From positions 1-55,586 of IMG/VR virus record IMGVR_UViG_3300048838_000528: a DNA stretch of 55,586 nt. One strand, written 5' to 3'. Position 1 is the first letter of the stretch. Every line of letters begins with the position of its first letter. The translations under genes and the position numbers were made by a program. This DNA comes from a virus (lineage: Duplodnaviria > Caudoviricetes). Below the pieces are notes generated by a model. That model was not told the origin of the DNA. It did not search any database and saw only the letters and a program-made list of their open reading frames with translations. Shown in pieces: positions 31,411 through 55,586 of this stretch.

Positions 31411-31424
31411 ATGTCCTTTTTTTT
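31396..31424. terminator. bidirectional terminator between the convergent arms
   Basis: aaaaa-ggaca-aataaa-tgtcc-tttttttt. Confidence 0.75.
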
Positions 31425-31950
31425 ATGTGTTTAATTTTGCTTCAACTTTAGCCAAGTCATTTTGAATGTTACGCTTTTTAAGTTCTTCTTGCATGGCTTT
31501 CTTCAAAGCAAGAACTTCATCGTAAGGTTTATAGAATGGCAAAGATACAAGCGTAGAACCTGCAATAATCATAAAAAGTAAAACAAATGCTTCAACAAAA
31601 AAGTTTGTTAGAACAACTACAATAGATAAAATAGCCATCGTGATTGCCAACTTTGAACGTTGATAGGTGATACCGAAACTTGCGTCGGCTTCTTTCATGG
31701 CGTCTTTTATCTTATCCCTAAAAATAAGAAACGCACCGAATAGACCAACCACACCCCAACCCGTTAAAGCGTATCCTGCGTCACGAAATGTAAACAAATC
31801 GTATCGAACCGAAAGGTATGCAAAAGGTAATCCTGCTTGGACTAAAACCCCCGTTAGCCCTAACATTTTCGGTGTACCCGTAATTTTAACTTTTGTTTTC
31901 TTTTTGTTTAATTTGATATAATCGGCAGGCTCTCTTTTGAGTTTAGCCAT
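31423..31950 (-). CDS. 4-TM membrane protein (holin/lysis candidate)
   Basis: four hydrophobic segments; last gene of the late arm. Confidence 0.7.
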   Translation of the reverse strand: MAKLKREPADYIKLNKKKTKVKITGTPKMLGLTGVLVQAGLPFAYLSVRYDLFTFRDAGYALTGWGVVGLFGAFLIFRDKIKDAMKEADASFGITYQRSKLAITMAILSIVVVLTNFFVEAFVLLFMIIAGSTLVSLPFYKPYDEVLALKKAMQEELKKRNIQNDLAKVEAKLNT

Positions 31951-31954
31951 ACGA

Positions 31955-32449
31955 CTACACCTCCTGTATTTTGTCTTTTAATGCGTCTTGTGATTGTGTA
32001 GAAATTTGTTGTTTTGCAACGTCATTTTGAATAGATAATCCTAAAATGGAAATTGCCTCTTGTGAAACAGTCGTAGCCTTTTTAGCAAAATCAAACATGG
32101 CTTGCTTTTGGTTTAACGGAACGTTAGCAACAGCAAGTGCTGAAATTGCCATGTCTTGCCAAAATTGTTTTTCTTTTATTTCACCTTGTAACTGTGTTTG
32201 CAACGGCTTGATAACATTTGCAACCATTTCGTTTTTGAAAGAAGTAAACTCAACACCAATTTCCTTTTTAACATCCGTAAATGTCTTGTGTGCTACCGTA
32301 GTGAAGTTCAAAAGTCTATCAACACGTTTAGCACCCAATCTTGAACCAACAAAAGTGTTCCATGCAACCACACCAAGTGTACCTAAACTAACACCAAATT
32401 GTGCAATTAAAGCGTAGCCTTCTTGCAATTCTTGTATTAACCAATCCAT
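31955..32449 (-). CDS. N-terminal TM plus coiled-coil protein
   Basis: hydrophobic N-terminus, helical body, lysis-module position. Confidence 0.7.
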   Translation of the reverse strand: MDWLIQELQEGYALIAQFGVSLGTLGVVAWNTFVGSRLGAKRVDRLLNFTTVAHKTFTDVKKEIGVEFTSFKNEMVANVIKPLQTQLQGEIKEKQFWQDMAISALAVANVPLNQKQAMFDFAKKATTVSQEAISILGLSIQNDVAKQQISTQSQDALKDKIQEV

Positions 32450-52398: not shown

Positions 52399-53113
52399 TT
52401 TCATCTTCCTCAACATATTTTGCAAAATCTGCGCCTGCAATGCCTAAACTTTTAGCCATGTGTTGCCCAAATTCCTTGCCACCACCCTTTAACCAAACAT
52501 CCATGCCTTGCATAACAACGTTTTTATCCATGCCCATAACCTTAATGGCTTGTGCTCTTGATTTTAAACGGTAATTATCATCTGGATGAAACAAAGCGTC
52601 ATCTACAATAGCGTCTTTTAACATATCTTCTTTCTTTCGACCACCAAGCATAAGTTGCTTATAAATATCAACAACTTGATTTAATTGATATTCATTCCAA
52701 TAACTAATCGCTTTAGATTTCAAAAGTGTATATTCTTTTTTCTTGTCATGTGAAACCATTGTACGATAACCGCTTTCGTTGCCATCTTTATCATAAACGG
52801 GAAATTTTGAAAATATATCTTCAACCCATGAAGCGTCATCCAAACTTGCAATATAACTTTCCACAATGTTATTAAATGTTTTATTACCCGTTTCCTTATT
52901 GATAAAGTCTTTATCATTGTAAAAAGATAACACCGTTTGTGCTTGAATAGGCAATTCCATGATTTCTTTTGGTATCATGAGTGAATTACCTGCAAGTGCT
53001 ATCTCGTTTTCATATTCTTCCAATTTATTTTCCTTCAACGCCTCAAAGTACGTTGTTTCACTAAATTCATTCAAGGGTTCTACGTCACGTGTTTTATCAA
53101 CTTTCATAGTCAC
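52391..53113 (-). CDS. probable terminase small subunit
   Basis: immediately upstream of terL, helical C-terminus. Confidence 0.55.
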   Translation of the reverse strand: MTMKVDKTRDVEPLNEFSETTYFEALKENKLEEYENEIALAGNSLMIPKEIMELPIQAQTVLSFYNDKDFINKETGNKTFNNIVESYIASLDDASWVEDIFSKFPVYDKDGNESGYRTMVSHDKKKEYTLLKSKAISYWNEYQLNQVVDIYKQLMLGGRKKEDMLKDAIVDDALFHPDDNYRLKSRAQAIKVMGMDKNVVMQGMDVWLKGGGKEFGQHMAKSLGIAGADFAKYVEEDENE

Positions 53114-53134
53114 TCCCCCTTAATCTTTATTTTA

Positions 53135-53163
53135 ATTGTACCATAATAATATTCGTTTGTCAA
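53135..53163 (-). promoter_or_regulatory. sigma-A-type promoter for the packaging/structural operon
   Basis: minus-strand TTGACA-17-TACAAT with TG extension. Confidence 0.8.
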
Positions 53164-53275
53164 GTATTATGTTGCAAACGCTTGCAAAATTTTCAGAAAA
53201 GTAATGAAAAACATCAAAAAACGTGTTCATTTGCATTATAAAGCAAAGTTTAGCATTTGTAAACTTGTAAAGTAT

Positions 53276-53297
53276 AAAAAAAGCACCTTATGGGTGC
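53276..53297 (-). terminator. intrinsic terminator of the sRNA
   Basis: minus-strand gcacc-cataa-ggtgc followed by T7. Confidence 0.75.
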
Positions 53298-53503
53298 AGA
53301 GTATCGATTATTCAATTATAATCGGGAGAGATTGTATGTAAAATGCGACTTTAGGAGGTATTAGTCGCAAATTACTGAAATTTATCGGTGGTTTTTTTGA
53401 GTTGTTTACCACCAAAAACAACATAATCCCACTTAACGTCCATTATCTCGGATTGGTTTATGGGGTCACAACCTAAACGGTTGGGATAAGTATTTTATAC
53501 TAC
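53276..53503 (-). ncRNA. putative structured small RNA of about 230 nt
   Basis: own promoter and terminator, no ORF, several hairpins plus an H-type pseudoknot. Confidence 0.7.
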
Positions 53504-53509
53504 ACCTAT

Positions 53510-53538
53510 ATCATAGCATATTAAAATAAAGTTGTCAA
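53510..53538 (-). promoter_or_regulatory. sigma-A-type promoter of the sRNA
   Basis: minus-strand TTGACA-17-TATGAT with TG extension. Confidence 0.8.
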
Positions 53539-53585
53539 GTAATATGTATTTGCACCATATAATTGCCTATTACAACATTAAGTGT

Positions 53586-53618
53586 AAAAAAAATGGGGTG
53601 GTCGCAACCAAGCCCCAT
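53586..53618 (-). terminator. intrinsic terminator
   Basis: minus-strand atgggg...ccccat followed by a T run. Confidence 0.75.
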
Positions 53619-53652
53619 CGTCCCCAAACCTCAAAAGTAATTGAGGAACATT

Positions 53653-53910
53653 TTAAAGTATAACCCACCAATGTGGATTGACCTTACGATAATGAGAGCC
53701 ATCGGATAAAATACCATCAAAATGTCTTAAACGTTTATTGTTGTGTTTTTTCATGAACGTTAGCATACCGTTTGGCTTTCCTTGAACCCTAACATACCTG
53801 CCATCTTTAAAATAGACCCCACTTGGATAATAATAAGAACCCAACTCACGGTTTAATCTTCTTAATCTCTTTTGCTCAATTTGTTTCTTGTTATATCTCA
53901 TATCATCCAC
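53653..53910 (-). CDS. basic 85-aa conserved phage protein
   Basis: KK..NKRLR...G..YRK...WW pattern; own promoter and terminator. Confidence 0.75.
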   Translation of the reverse strand: MDDMRYNKKQIEQKRLRRLNRELGSYYYPSGVYFKDGRYVRVQGKPNGMLTFMKKHNNKRLRHFDGILSDGSHYRKVNPHWWVIL

Positions 53911-54000
53911 CTCATGTCTTTTGTTTAAGGTTTAATACTAAAACATTTTTTAAAAAGAAAAAAAAGGAAAAAAAGAAAACTAACAAAGAACGGTATCTAT

Positions 54001-54029
54001 ATAGTAGCACATCCAAAACACCTTGTCAA
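54001..54029 (-). promoter_or_regulatory. sigma-A-type promoter
   Basis: minus-strand TTGACA-17-TACTAT with TG extension. Confidence 0.75.
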
Positions 54030-54086: not shown

Positions 54087-54416
54087 CTAAAGTAAAAGTT
54101 TACTTTTATTTGAAACGTATCGTACCGGTATCGGTTCATTTTGAAACGATTGCTTACCACTCATCGGGTGGTCTATCATAGCGTCCTTATCCATAAATAT
54201 TAAATTGCCACACGTCAGACACGTATGCCCGTAAAATGGGAACTCCCCAATCTTAACCTCTTGCTCATATCTAAAATGTGTCGAACCACACTCACTACAT
54301 CTAACACCATCATATAAAACATTGACACGTTTTGAAACACTATTGTTTCTTTTTGCAACGTAAACATCATTCTTGCTGTTCCGTAAACTTTTTTGTAAAC
54401 CAAACATTTTAATCAC
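54087..54416 (-). CDS. zinc-ribbon protein
   Basis: CSEC and CLTC pairs, GAGGTG RBS. Confidence 0.7.
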   Translation of the reverse strand: MIKMFGLQKSLRNSKNDVYVAKRNNSVSKRVNVLYDGVRCSECGSTHFRYEQEVKIGEFPFYGHTCLTCGNLIFMDKDAMIDHPMSGKQSFQNEPIPVRYVSNKSKLLL

Positions 54417-54811: not shown

Positions 54812-54955
54812 GCCATACGGTTTAGCACCACATCATGTTATCAAAGGCAATTAAATGGTGCAAAATCAAACTCATTATATTTATGGCAAATGCGAATAAA
54901 ATAAAAAATATGCAATTGCCGTCATCACATACAAACCATATCGTGCCATTTTAGC

Positions 54956-55520
54956 CCGTTTAAGACCGTTTTATTTTCAATGCGAATATTTTATCACGAA
55001 ATACATCAAAACATGTTACAAGACCTATTACGTGCCTTAAAACGCATATCAACATTCCACAACAAAACAAACCTTGTGTGTGCGTGTGTGTATGTGCGGT
55101 TTGTTTTTCCCTGCCCACTCCCTATGCAGAAAACAACATCAACCCTACGGGGGGGATGCTTTAGTATAGTAAAGCGTTACACTATTAAACCATTACAACG
55201 TTATCATATCAACGTATTATCTGAATACATTCTACTATCGGTAGAATTACACTATTTATAATATATATAAAGTCTACTATTGGTAGATACGATATAATAG
55301 CACTCTACCTGAACGACTGCCAAGCACTCACGATGTAAGACTGCTAAAATGAAAGTCTTTCATGTAACTATCATGATGTTTCATGTAAAATATAATATAT
55401 ATAAATAAACACTACCATTGTATACTATGTAATATATAGCATGCGTAAAACATGCTTAAAATCGGTTTTAAAGCGTTTTTAATCTTCCATGATAATTATT
55501 ATGCACTATGTAATAAAAAT
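54956..55520. repeat. two copies of a degenerate 60-90 bp element; third copy inverted at 54-142
   Basis: shared pattern c(c/g)gttt..a...c.tttt...tat(t/c)a...aaaa. Confidence 0.55.
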
Positions 55521-55586
55521 AGCATACACGAGAAATCAATATATATACTAAACATATGTAATAATAATTATGTAAATACTTACTAT

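What the first reader, a model, noticed from the sequence alone, without database searches (positions are those of the whole stretch)
53276..53538. Stand-alone phage sRNA with an H-type pseudoknot and anti-Shine-Dalgarno segments
Seen: a minus-strand promoter (TTGACA-17-TATGAT) and an intrinsic terminator bracket about 230 nt with no ORF, just upstream of the terminase promoter. Read 5'->3' the RNA has five parts. (1) A 5' multi-stem domain closed by AUCCCA/UGGGAU. (2) A textbook H-type pseudoknot GUUGUUU-UU-GGUGGU-AAACAAC-UCAAAAAA-ACCACC (53422-53387), with short L1, zero L2 and A-rich L3. (3) A 7-bp hairpin UGCGACU/AGUCGCA whose loop AAUACCUCCUAA is an anti-SD sequence (53369-53344). (4) A single-stranded CUCUCC tract and a further hairpin. 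(5) The terminator. Inference: a trans-acting RNA that occludes ribosome-binding sites, like the C-rich-loop sRNAs of Firmicutes, or a pseudoknot decoy of the type III antitoxin mimic kind. I do not recognise it as a known family.
Basis: partly seen in the sequence, partly recalled or inferred. Interest (0 to 1): 0.85.

Follow-up and report, generated by a model that had tools for sequence, protein, structure and literature searches.

The report
Phage small RNA with anti-Shine-Dalgarno loop
An uncultured phage carries, just before its DNA-packaging genes, a self-contained gene for a small non-coding RNA whose conserved hairpin loop can pair with ribosome-binding sites, best of all that of one of the phage's own membrane-protein genes, while the eye-catching pseudoknot is a private addition of this phage with no comparative support.

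Summary
The sequence features are real. A consensus extended -10 promoter (53538-53510), about 228 nt without a conserved ORF, and an intrinsic terminator (53297-53276) lie between the terminator of an 85-aa gene and the promoter of the packaging genes. There is no Rfam match. Comparative data split the RNA in two. The 3' module (anti-SD hairpin 53369-53344, C-rich linker, terminator) is strongly structured (z -6.7). It recurs in relatives with an unchanged 12-nt loop and compensatory stem changes, and the terminator covaries in four sequences. The 5' domain and the H-type pseudoknot (53422-53387) are absent from every relative recovered. The 5' part is not unusually stable (z -1.4). The pseudoknot is rare in this genome but untestable by covariation. 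No tandem repeats support a type III antitoxin mimic. Best reading: a stand-alone base-pairing sRNA of the C-rich/anti-SD kind. New lead: the hairpin's 5' arm plus loop pairs over 16 bp with the ribosome-binding site of the phage's own 175-aa multi-membrane-span gene (31950). None of 700 randomised arms matched this. No transcript evidence exists. This scan has noted similar anti-SD-loop RNAs beside terminase genes in other phages. It is a new member of a known kind, of moderate interest.

The parts
53586..53618 (-). Intrinsic terminator of the upstream 85-aa gene (stem AUGGGG/CCCCAU around an inner hairpin, then U8). It insulates the RNA gene from upstream transcription.
   Evidence: Read. 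Not listed by the simple scan because its loop is long. Replaced by 8 other letters in one run contig (joint 53584-53655).
53510..53538 (-). Promoter of the RNA: TTGACA, 17 nt, TG-n-TATGAT (11 of 12). It has the same upstream ACATAaTAC motif as the promoters at 54029 and 53163.
   Evidence: The promoter is conserved at the same place in L002 and L108.
53425..53507 (-). Promoter-proximal AGGUGUA motif (the transcription start probably lies inside it, about 53503) followed by the lineage-specific 5' domain.
Evidence: The motif is conserved in L002, L108 and the X4/X5 contigs, and also follows the -10 of the L108 packaging-gene promoter. The 5' half (53503-53385, pseudoknot included) is not stable beyond shuffles. 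The domain is absent in relatives.
53387..53422 (-). Candidate H-type pseudoknot: S1 of 7 bp, L1 of 2 nt, S2 of 6 bp, no L2, A-rich L3 of 8 nt.
   Evidence: one of 3 such places in 111 kb. S2 is paired at 0.99 and its partner loop is free in the nested ensemble. No homologue was found for covariation.
53344..53369 (-). Anti-SD hairpin: 7-bp stem UGCGACU/AGUCGCA and 12-nt loop AAUACCUCCUAA. This is the conserved core of the RNA.
   Evidence: The loop is identical in L002 while 4 of 7 stem pairs change on both sides and all stay paired. The loop core is kept with other 3' arms in run contigs X1 and X2. Loop unpaired probability is 0.97. CCTCCTAA is unique in the window.
53325..53343 (-). U-run and single-stranded C-rich linker (UCUCUCCC at 53331-53324).
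   Evidence: Unpaired probability 0.87. A C-rich tract also follows the hairpin in L002. No specific phage target beyond chance: 68 of 300 shuffles did as well.
53305..53324 (-). 7-bp AU-rich hairpin.
   Evidence: No differences listed in the X1 and X2 contigs. Not conserved in L002.
53276..53297 (-). Terminator of the RNA: 5-bp stem, conserved loop CAUAA, U7.
   Evidence: Covariation in 4 sequences (window, L002, L106, L108): 19 of 20 cells paired, score 0.90 against 0.27 in shuffles, 1 of 500 as high.
53135..53263 (-). Two further promoter-like sites (53263-53235, and the consensus one at 53163-53135) that serve the packaging genes. They show the RNA unit is separate from the late messenger.
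   Evidence: Conserved in L002 and L105.
31950..31965 (-). Predicted target: Shine-Dalgarno to first base of the start codon of the 175-aa multi-membrane-span gene 31950..31423. It is complementary to the hairpin's 5' arm plus loop (16 bp, 2 G-U, 1 bulge).
   Evidence: -24.2 kcal/mol against -16.4 for the next of 92 start regions. 0 of 400 random and 0 of 300 permuted arms reach it.

Best explanation
This is a stand-alone gene for a small non-coding RNA of about 228 nt in an uncultured 55.6-kb phage. The phage has Bacillota-style promoters and ribosome-binding sites. The RNA is made from a consensus host-type promoter and ended by its own terminator. Its working part is the 3' module: a hairpin that displays the loop AAUACCUCCUAA, followed by a single-stranded C-rich linker. 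The loop pairs with Shine-Dalgarno sequences. In this phage, pairing can spread into the 5' arm of the hairpin and cover the ribosome-binding site up to the start codon of gene 31950, a 175-aa protein with about four membrane spans at the end of the late arm, beside the region a first-reader note of this scan takes for the lysis region. That would block or delay its translation. Shown: the sequence anatomy, the conservation pattern, the predicted accessibility and the complementarity. Inferred: that the RNA is made, that it acts in trans, and what it targets. The 5' domain and pseudoknot are a lineage-specific addition of unknown role, perhaps stability or a second function.
For: Promoter and terminator are at the stated places. 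There is no conserved ORF. The upstream gene has its own terminator, and the packaging genes have their own consensus promoter, so the unit is separate. The 3' module folds at z -6.7. In L002 (terS-like protein 81% identical) the 12-nt loop is unchanged, while 4 of 7 stem pairs changed on both sides and all stay paired. Contigs of relatives in runs X1 and X2 keep ACCUCCUAA next to yet another 3' arm, and X4/X5 keep a 10-of-12 variant. A more distant relative, L102, has a hairpin with CCCUCCUA in a 15-nt loop plus a U-run. The terminator covaries in 4 sequences. Loop and linker are predicted unpaired at 0.97 and 0.87. Against 92 start regions, the hairpin's 5' arm plus loop gives -24.2 kcal/mol for gene 31950 and -16.4 for the next best; 0 of 400 random and 0 of 300 permuted arms match it. 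Co-folding favours the duplex by 6.3 kcal/mol after the hairpin opens. The mechanism class is established for C-rich loop sRNAs (PMC2790875, passages read), for streptococcal csRNAs (PMC3091779, passages) and for the phage P1/P7 c4 RNA (review PMC12197685, passages).
Against: No transcript has been observed. No RNA run on record holds the stretch, and the one 'RNA-Seq' library is only a guess and holds contigs only. Only two full-length sequences carry the loop in register, so covariation of the hairpin rests on one comparison. Relatives L108 and L103 have a cassette or hairpin at the same place without an anti-SD loop, and the L108 RNA is not structured beyond its terminator. The target prediction is post hoc and uses crude gene calls. 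It needs the hairpin stem to open. It could not be tested for co-variation because no relative's contig holds both genes. GGAGG-type sites are not enriched in either arm, 16 of 68 against 4 of 25, so a general early-gene shut-off has no support. The linker has no target beyond chance.
Confidence: 0.45

Rival explanations
1. The region is a cis-acting leader of the late operon. A constitutive promoter makes a short terminated RNA, and a phage factor that binds the conserved hairpin loop (like N at boxB) or the promoter (like Q at pR'-tR') lets polymerase read through into the packaging and structural genes. The short RNA is then a by-product, as with lambda 6S or StxS.
For: The position is directly ahead of the packaging genes. 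Two terminator-like hairpins lie in tandem: the anti-SD hairpin is followed by a U-run in the window, L002 and L102, and the covarying terminator comes after it. An invariant loop on a variable stem is also the signature of a protein-binding hairpin. A very basic 85-aa protein of unknown function is encoded just upstream and is conserved in L002. The abstract of PMC7547250 (search listing) shows that such by-products can be regulatory RNAs.
Against: A consensus TTGACA-17-TACAAT promoter with TG sits between the terminator and the packaging genes, and another promoter-like site lies before it. Both are conserved in relatives, so read-through is not needed. Few terminator-like sites lie within the late arm: 14 found against 11.3 expected on both strands. 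No antiterminator family was detected in the neighbouring proteins.
Confidence: 0.2
2. The RNA is a decoy or sponge rather than a messenger-pairing regulator. Either the pseudoknot mimics a host type III antitoxin, or the loop mimics the 3' tail of 16S rRNA to soak up a host factor.
For: The 36-nt pseudoknot is rare in this genome and thermodynamically possible. By my recollection, the loop shares its CCUCC core and neighbouring bases with the 16S anti-SD tail.
Against: No tandem repeats lie in or near the RNA. The pseudoknot is absent from all relatives recovered and from IMG/VR by pattern: 2 hits, both in coding DNA of unrelated phages. The host and any toxin are unknown.
Confidence: 0.08
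3. There is no RNA function. The stretch is mosaic intergenic DNA made of a spare promoter and terminators (a moron-like junction), and the conserved pieces are kept for transcription insulation or by recent common descent.
For: The interior is highly variable among close relatives: about 228 nt here, about 105 nt in L002, about 80 nt in L108. Exchange points lie exactly at the promoter-proximal motif and near the U-run. L108 and L103 lack the anti-SD loop.
Against: An invariant 12-nt loop beside a fully rebuilt but still pairing stem is not expected from drift. The same loop core recurs with at least three different 3' arms. In the X1 contig the differences pile up downstream of the terminator, while none is listed at 53303-53329.
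Confidence: 0.15
4. The region encodes a small peptide: the 38-codon ORF 53424-53308, or a plus-strand ORF behind the perfect SD formed by the loop's complement.
For: The ORF exists. The plus strand reads TTAGGAGG at 53351.
Against: L002 has no corresponding ORF of 40 codons or more between its two flanking genes. The loop is read in different frames in the two phages, as seen. No ATG, GTG or TTG follows the plus-strand SD at a usable distance (read).
Confidence: 0.03

Closest known systems
C-rich / anti-SD loop sRNAs of Bacillota: S. aureus RsaE and RNAIII hairpins (PMC2790875, passages read), B. subtilis RoxS (PMC8216469, search listing only), streptococcal csRNAs (PMC3091779, passages read)
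   Same: It is an independent promoter-terminator unit. An unpaired pyrimidine motif complementary to the Shine-Dalgarno sequence is displayed in a loop or linker, and that motif is the most conserved part. The expected action is to block translation initiation.
   Different: It is encoded by a phage and has no sequence or model similarity to those families (no Rfam hit). The loop carries a full 7-nt anti-SD core rather than UCCC. The best predicted target is a gene of the phage itself.
c4 antisense RNA of phages P1 and P7 (review PMC12197685, passages read; Citron and Schuster 1990 seen only in that reference list)
   Same: It is a phage-encoded, trans-acting RNA whose loop sequences pair around the ribosome-binding site of a gene of the same phage. 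Related phages differ in the pairing letters.
   Different: c4 belongs to temperate enterobacterial phages, is cut out of an operon transcript (recalled) and controls an antirepressor. Here the RNA has its own promoter, the Rfam models did not match, and the predicted target is a late membrane protein.
Short pR'-tR' transcripts of lambdoid phages (lambda 6S RNA, recalled; StxS, PMC7547250, abstract in search listing)
   Same: A strong promoter, about 200 nt without a gene, and a terminator sit directly ahead of the late genes.
   Different: Here the late genes keep their own consensus promoter downstream of the terminator. No Q-like protein was detected.
Type III antitoxin RNAs (ToxI-like) and their phage mimics (recalled)
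   Same: A pseudoknot-forming unit of 36 nt.
   Different: It is a single copy with no tandem array. It is not conserved in relatives, and no cognate toxin is known.

Membership tests
Base-pairing sRNAs with exposed anti-SD / C-rich motif (RsaE, RNAIII, RoxS, csRNA kind) | Own promoter and intrinsic terminator, no conserved ORF | tested here: met
   This is sequence-level only; no transcript was seen.
Base-pairing sRNAs with exposed anti-SD / C-rich motif (RsaE, RNAIII, RoxS, csRNA kind) | Pyrimidine motif unpaired in the predicted structure and the most conserved element among homologues | tested here: met
   Unpaired probability 0.97. The loop is identical in L002 with a rebuilt stem, and its core is kept in the X1 and X2 contigs. 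It is absent in L108 and L103.
Base-pairing sRNAs with exposed anti-SD / C-rich motif (RsaE, RNAIII, RoxS, csRNA kind) | Homology to a described family (Rfam model) | tested here: not met
   0 hits at gathering score in the whole window. Only chance-level hits at E up to 10, none on the RNA strand inside 53276-53505.
Base-pairing sRNAs with exposed anti-SD / C-rich motif (RsaE, RNAIII, RoxS, csRNA kind) | Demonstrated pairing with a messenger's ribosome-binding site and block of initiation | not testable with these tools
   Only predicted: 16 bp with the start region of gene 31950.
Type III antitoxin RNA or phage mimic | Tandem direct repeats of the pseudoknot unit | tested here: not met
   No tandem repeat between 52800 and 53951; the arrays found lie elsewhere.
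Type III antitoxin RNA or phage mimic | Similarity to the antitoxin of a host toxin (ToxN-like) system | not testable with these tools
   The host is unknown. Of the neighbours, the upstream 85-aa protein and the terS-like protein gave no family at the thresholds used, and the other three gave only sub-threshold or terminase/portal hits, none a ToxN-like toxin family.
Conserved H-type pseudoknot element | Both stems supported by covariation in homologues | tested here: inconclusive
   No homologue of 53358-53493 at 80% or more in 4 runs. None in 113 loci by blastn. None in IMG/VR by pattern.
Lambdoid pR'-tR' late leader | The late genes depend on read-through of the terminator (no promoter of their own) and on a Q-type antiterminator | tested here: not met
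   A consensus promoter lies at 53163-53135 between terminator and genes. No antiterminator family was found in the neighbours.
c4-type phage antisense RNA | Loop letters complementary to the ribosome-binding region of a gene of the same phage | tested here: met
   This is a prediction only.
c4-type phage antisense RNA | Match to the Rfam C4 model | tested here: not met

The most novel reading that the evidence does not exclude
The RNA is a self-targeting timer. It is made from the first moments of late-arm transcription. It holds back translation of the last gene of that arm, a four-span membrane protein that may be the holin, by pairing from the Shine-Dalgarno sequence to the start codon. 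The hairpin arm that differs between sister phages sets the specificity, as c4 does for P1 and P7. This phage has in addition captured a 130-nt module with a true H-type pseudoknot that stabilises the RNA or gives it a second, decoy function.
Probability: 0.15. Interest if true: 0.7.

Novelty: new member of a known kind. Interest (0 to 1): 0.45.

Why it matters
Very few regulatory RNAs of lytic or uncultured phages are known. The 2025 review that I searched by terms has no occurrence of holin, terminase or Gram-positive in its text (PMC12197685). One full-text search for phage-encoded small RNAs with anti-Shine-Dalgarno elements returned a single, unrelated paper. If this RNA is made and pairs as predicted, it would be an sRNA that controls a phage's own late membrane protein, possibly its lysis clock. 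This scan has noted similar anti-SD-loop RNAs beside terminase genes in several unrelated phages. Together these would point to a recurrent and so far undescribed layer of phage translation control.

Tried and rejected
Rfam at gathering score on the whole window gave 0 hits. Permissive mode on 53100-53700 gave only chance-level hits. ARAGORN found no tRNA or tmRNA.

blastn of 601 nt against 50,697 phage records gave no match.

Homologue hunting gave the following.
- The terS-like protein in IMG/VR gave 1 locus.
- A 25-sequence alignment gave 4 viral and 7 metagenome loci, two of each set being the same contigs.
- Prokaryote genomes gave none, and the first metagenome scan gave none.
- The 85-aa protein gave only L002's contig.
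- The 175-aa protein gave none.
- The loop-plus-U-run pattern gave 98 stretches, of which only L002's contig is a homologue. The others are ribosome-binding sites read on the other strand.
- The pattern AGGTGTA..CTCCTAA..TTTTTAC gave L002's contig plus 1 chance hit.
None passed a stem and terminator screen, and L002's contig was not among them.
- The pseudoknot pattern gave 2 chance hits in coding DNA.

A covariance model of the 3' module (2 sequences) found only L108 (29.5 bits, mostly the terminator) and a marginal L110 site (E 0.046) in 91,421 bases.

The Logan/ENA contigs of the 47 terS-like homologues could therefore not be fetched. This is the main gap.

Sequencing runs: no RNA holder is listed, and only small shares of words were held. 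Laid contigs leave 53358-53493 uncovered.

Ideas rejected:
- General shut-off of early genes: GGAGG sites are in 16 of 68 plus-arm and 4 of 25 minus-arm genes.
- The C-rich linker pairing specifically with the packaging gene's ribosome-binding site or any other: 68 of 300 shuffles do as well.
- A phi29-type packaging RNA: no Rfam match, the length varies threefold among close relatives, and the terminase is an ordinary large subunit.
- The AGGUGUA motif as an RNA helix arm. It pairs with the U-run region in L002's fold. But the start site probably lies inside it, and it also follows the -10 of another promoter in L108.
- Peptide coding.

The protein atlas and PHROGs gave no function for the 85-aa, 175-aa and neighbouring proteins. 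Supplementary files of papers were not consulted.

Full report
Setting. The window is a complete-looking IMG/VR virus record of 55,586 bp. Plus-strand genes run to about 31.4 kb, and a minus-strand arm runs from 54.8 kb down to 31.4 kb. That arm begins with three small genes. It continues with a 238-aa gene in the small-terminase position that has no Pfam or PHROG hit, then a large terminase and a portal, both with PHROG hits. The finding lies between the 85-aa gene (53910-53653) and the 238-aa gene (53107-52391).

What is in the sequence. On the minus strand I read the following parts.
- A terminator for the 85-aa gene at 53618-53586.
- TTGACA-17-TATGAT with an extended -10 TG at 53538-53510.
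- About 228 nt with no conserved ORF.
- The terminator GCACC-CAUAA-GGUGC-U7 at 53297-53276.
- Two further promoter-like sites, the second a consensus one at 53163-53135, just before the 238-aa gene.

The three promoters at 54029, 53538 and 53163 share the upstream letters ACATAaTAC. Two points need correcting. A 38-codon ORF does exist, though it has no counterpart in the relative. The proposed closing helix of the 5' domain is 3.5 kcal/mol worse than the minimum-energy fold.

Is it more than chance? The whole RNA folds at z -5.2, but the signal is uneven. The 3' 105 nt give z -6.7 (0 of 200 shuffles as good). The 5' 119 nt give z -1.4 (21 of 200 as good). A search of both strands of the window for perfect H-type pseudoknots (S1 at least 6 bp, S2 at least 5 bp, sum at least 13 bp, usual loop lengths) found three places, one of them this one. 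About 0.006 would be expected in 230 nt, although the test is post hoc. In nested folding, S2 is formed (0.99) and the S1 partner inside its loop is free. The stems are modest, with duplex energies of -4.6 and -8.5 kcal/mol. The pseudoknot is therefore possible but not clearly favoured.

Known families. Rfam 15 gives nothing at gathering score in the whole window. Permissive mode gives only chance-level hits, none on the RNA strand within the RNA. There is no tRNA or tmRNA, no tandem repeat in the region and no match in 50,697 phage records.

Relatives. The 238-aa protein has 47 homologues in the large protein collection. Four observations follow.

- L002 (81% identical protein) has the same layout: the 85-aa gene homologue, a promoter, the AGGUGUAG motif, a hairpin, a C-rich tract, a terminator with the CAUAA loop, two promoters and the gene. 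Its RNA is only about 105 nt. After AGGUGUAG the hairpin follows almost at once. The 12-nt loop is identical. Of the 7 stem pairs, 4 are changed on both sides, and all 14 cells pair. With the terminator included, 6 of 12 pairs carry double changes, and 8 of 500 shuffles reach this.
- The terminator could be compared in four sequences (window, L002, L106, L108). In these, 19 of 20 cells pair, the covariation score is 0.90 against 0.27, and 1 of 500 shuffles is as high.
- Contigs of relatives in four public runs add partial views. In X1 and X2 the sequence is close to the window from the packaging gene up to 53329/53333. It then reads, in RNA sense, the same loop core ACCUCCUAA next to a third kind of 3' arm (ACUCCC) and a U-run. 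In X4 and X5 the promoter region 53501-53645 is about 97% identical to the window. Directly after AGGUGUA, however, the sequence turns into a short stretch with a 10-of-12 variant of the loop. No contig covers 53358-53493. The 5' domain and pseudoknot are thus an insertion private to this phage lineage.
- More distant relatives vary. L102 has a strong hairpin (z -5.6) with CCCUCCUA in a 15-nt loop and a U7 tail. L103 has a hairpin without that motif. L108 has the promoter, AGGUGU and the covarying terminator, but no anti-SD loop and no stable fold (z -0.4). L101, L110 and L109 have other upstream regions.

The anti-SD loop is therefore conserved in the window's closer circle. It is not universal at this genome position.

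The AGGUGUA motif. In L002's fold it pairs with the U-run region behind the hairpin. But it lies 3 to 9 nt after the -10 element, so the start site probably falls inside it. The same letters also follow the -10 of L108's packaging-gene promoter. I treat it as a promoter-proximal motif, not as an RNA helix.

How it may work. Loop and linker are predicted single-stranded, at 0.97 and 0.87. The exact complement of the loop occurs nowhere else in the window, and no site has one mismatch. Strong GGAGG sites are spread evenly over both arms, 16 of 68 and 4 of 25 crude gene calls. A general early-gene shut-off is therefore not supported.

When the hairpin's 5' arm is included, one start region stands out among 92. 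It belongs to gene 31950..31423, and the duplex has 16 bp with two G-U pairs and one bulge. It runs from the Shine-Dalgarno sequence to the first base of the start codon (31965-31950). Its energy is -24.2 kcal/mol, against -16.4 for the next best. None of 400 random arms and none of 300 permuted arms reached this value. Co-folding with the whole 3' module still favours the duplex by 6.3 kcal/mol, although the -7.9 kcal/mol hairpin must open. The C-rich linker has no comparable target; 68 of 300 shuffles do as well.

The target gene is the last of the late arm and encodes a 175-aa protein. By my reading of its sequence it has about four hydrophobic spans. It has no family assignment. It lies next to the region that another first-reader note of this scan took for the lysis region. 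The prediction is post hoc, and it could not be tested for co-variation because no relative's contig holds both genes.

Rivals. A lambda-like late leader with antitermination fits the position, the two hairpins followed by U-runs, and the pattern of an invariant loop on a variable stem. It is weakened by the conserved consensus promoter between terminator and genes, and by the lack of any recognisable antiterminator. A decoy reading rests only on the unconserved pseudoknot, and its one testable criterion, tandem repeats, fails. A 'no function' reading does not explain an invariant loop on a rebuilt stem that recurs with at least three arm versions.

Comparison with what is known. In mechanism it is closest to the C-rich or anti-SD loop sRNAs of Bacillota and to the streptococcal csRNAs (PMC2790875 and PMC3091779, passages read). 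Among phage RNAs it is closest to c4 of P1 and P7, which pairs around the ribosome-binding site of a gene of the same phage (review PMC12197685, passages). It is a member of none of these families by sequence or model. One full-text search for phage-encoded small RNAs with anti-Shine-Dalgarno elements found a single, unrelated paper. Earlier notes of this scan describe similar RNAs beside terminase genes in other, unrelated phages. These are unchecked leads, not support.

Verdict. This is a real and probably functional small RNA gene of a known mechanistic kind in a new, small family. The conserved anti-SD hairpin is its core, and it has a testable predicted target in the phage itself.

Noticed in passing
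window 53945-53995 (minus strand); L002 about 1890-1935; L108 about 245-300: The leader behind the promoter at 54029 is a long pyrimidine-only (U/C) tract ahead of the 85-aa gene. A like tract follows the corresponding promoter in L002 and L108. Its role is unknown; it may be a translation or stability element.
   Followed up: no
window 54029-54001, 53538-53510, 53163-53135: Three tandem transcription units on the minus strand use near-identical consensus promoters with the shared upstream letters ACATAaTAC. L002 and L108 have their own shared versions. This suggests co-regulation or an UP-like element.
   Followed up: partly
window 53170-53235; L002 2460-2540; L103 and L108 upstream of the packaging gene: Short direct repeats lie between the RNA's terminator and the packaging-gene promoter: ACACGTTTT-like in the window and L002, ATGTTTCAC-like in L103 and L108. 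They may be protein-binding or packaging-recognition sites.
   Followed up: no
L101 about 320-490 (also L110): In a more distant relative, the region upstream of the terS-like gene holds three tandem copies of a unit of roughly 50 nt. Each copy can form a CCCCA...TGGGG hairpin. It looks like a repeated structured element and was not examined.
   Followed up: no
L110 about 1990-2030; L101 about 140-175: A small hairpin with CCUCC in its loop, followed by a U-rich run, lies upstream of the terS-like gene in L110. It is weaker in L101. I read this by eye.
   Followed up: no
window 31950-31975: In my crude survey of 93 genes, gene 31950 has the strongest Shine-Dalgarno match of the whole phage.
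   Followed up: partly
window 54087-54416 (minus strand); L002 1573-1872: A roughly 100-aa protein with two CxxC pairs (zinc-ribbon-like) is conserved two genes upstream of the RNA. It has no family hit.
   Followed up: no
L102 about 2600-2990: A gene that looks like a small heat-shock protein (my reading, no search run) sits between the anti-SD-loop hairpin and the terS-like gene of this relative. It is also at the start of L109.
   Followed up: no
window 54850-55586 and 1-460: A long AT-rich non-coding stretch spans the record's ends. It holds a (TG)n run at 55075-55096 and short repeats. It may be the origin of replication or the genome-end region.
   Followed up: no
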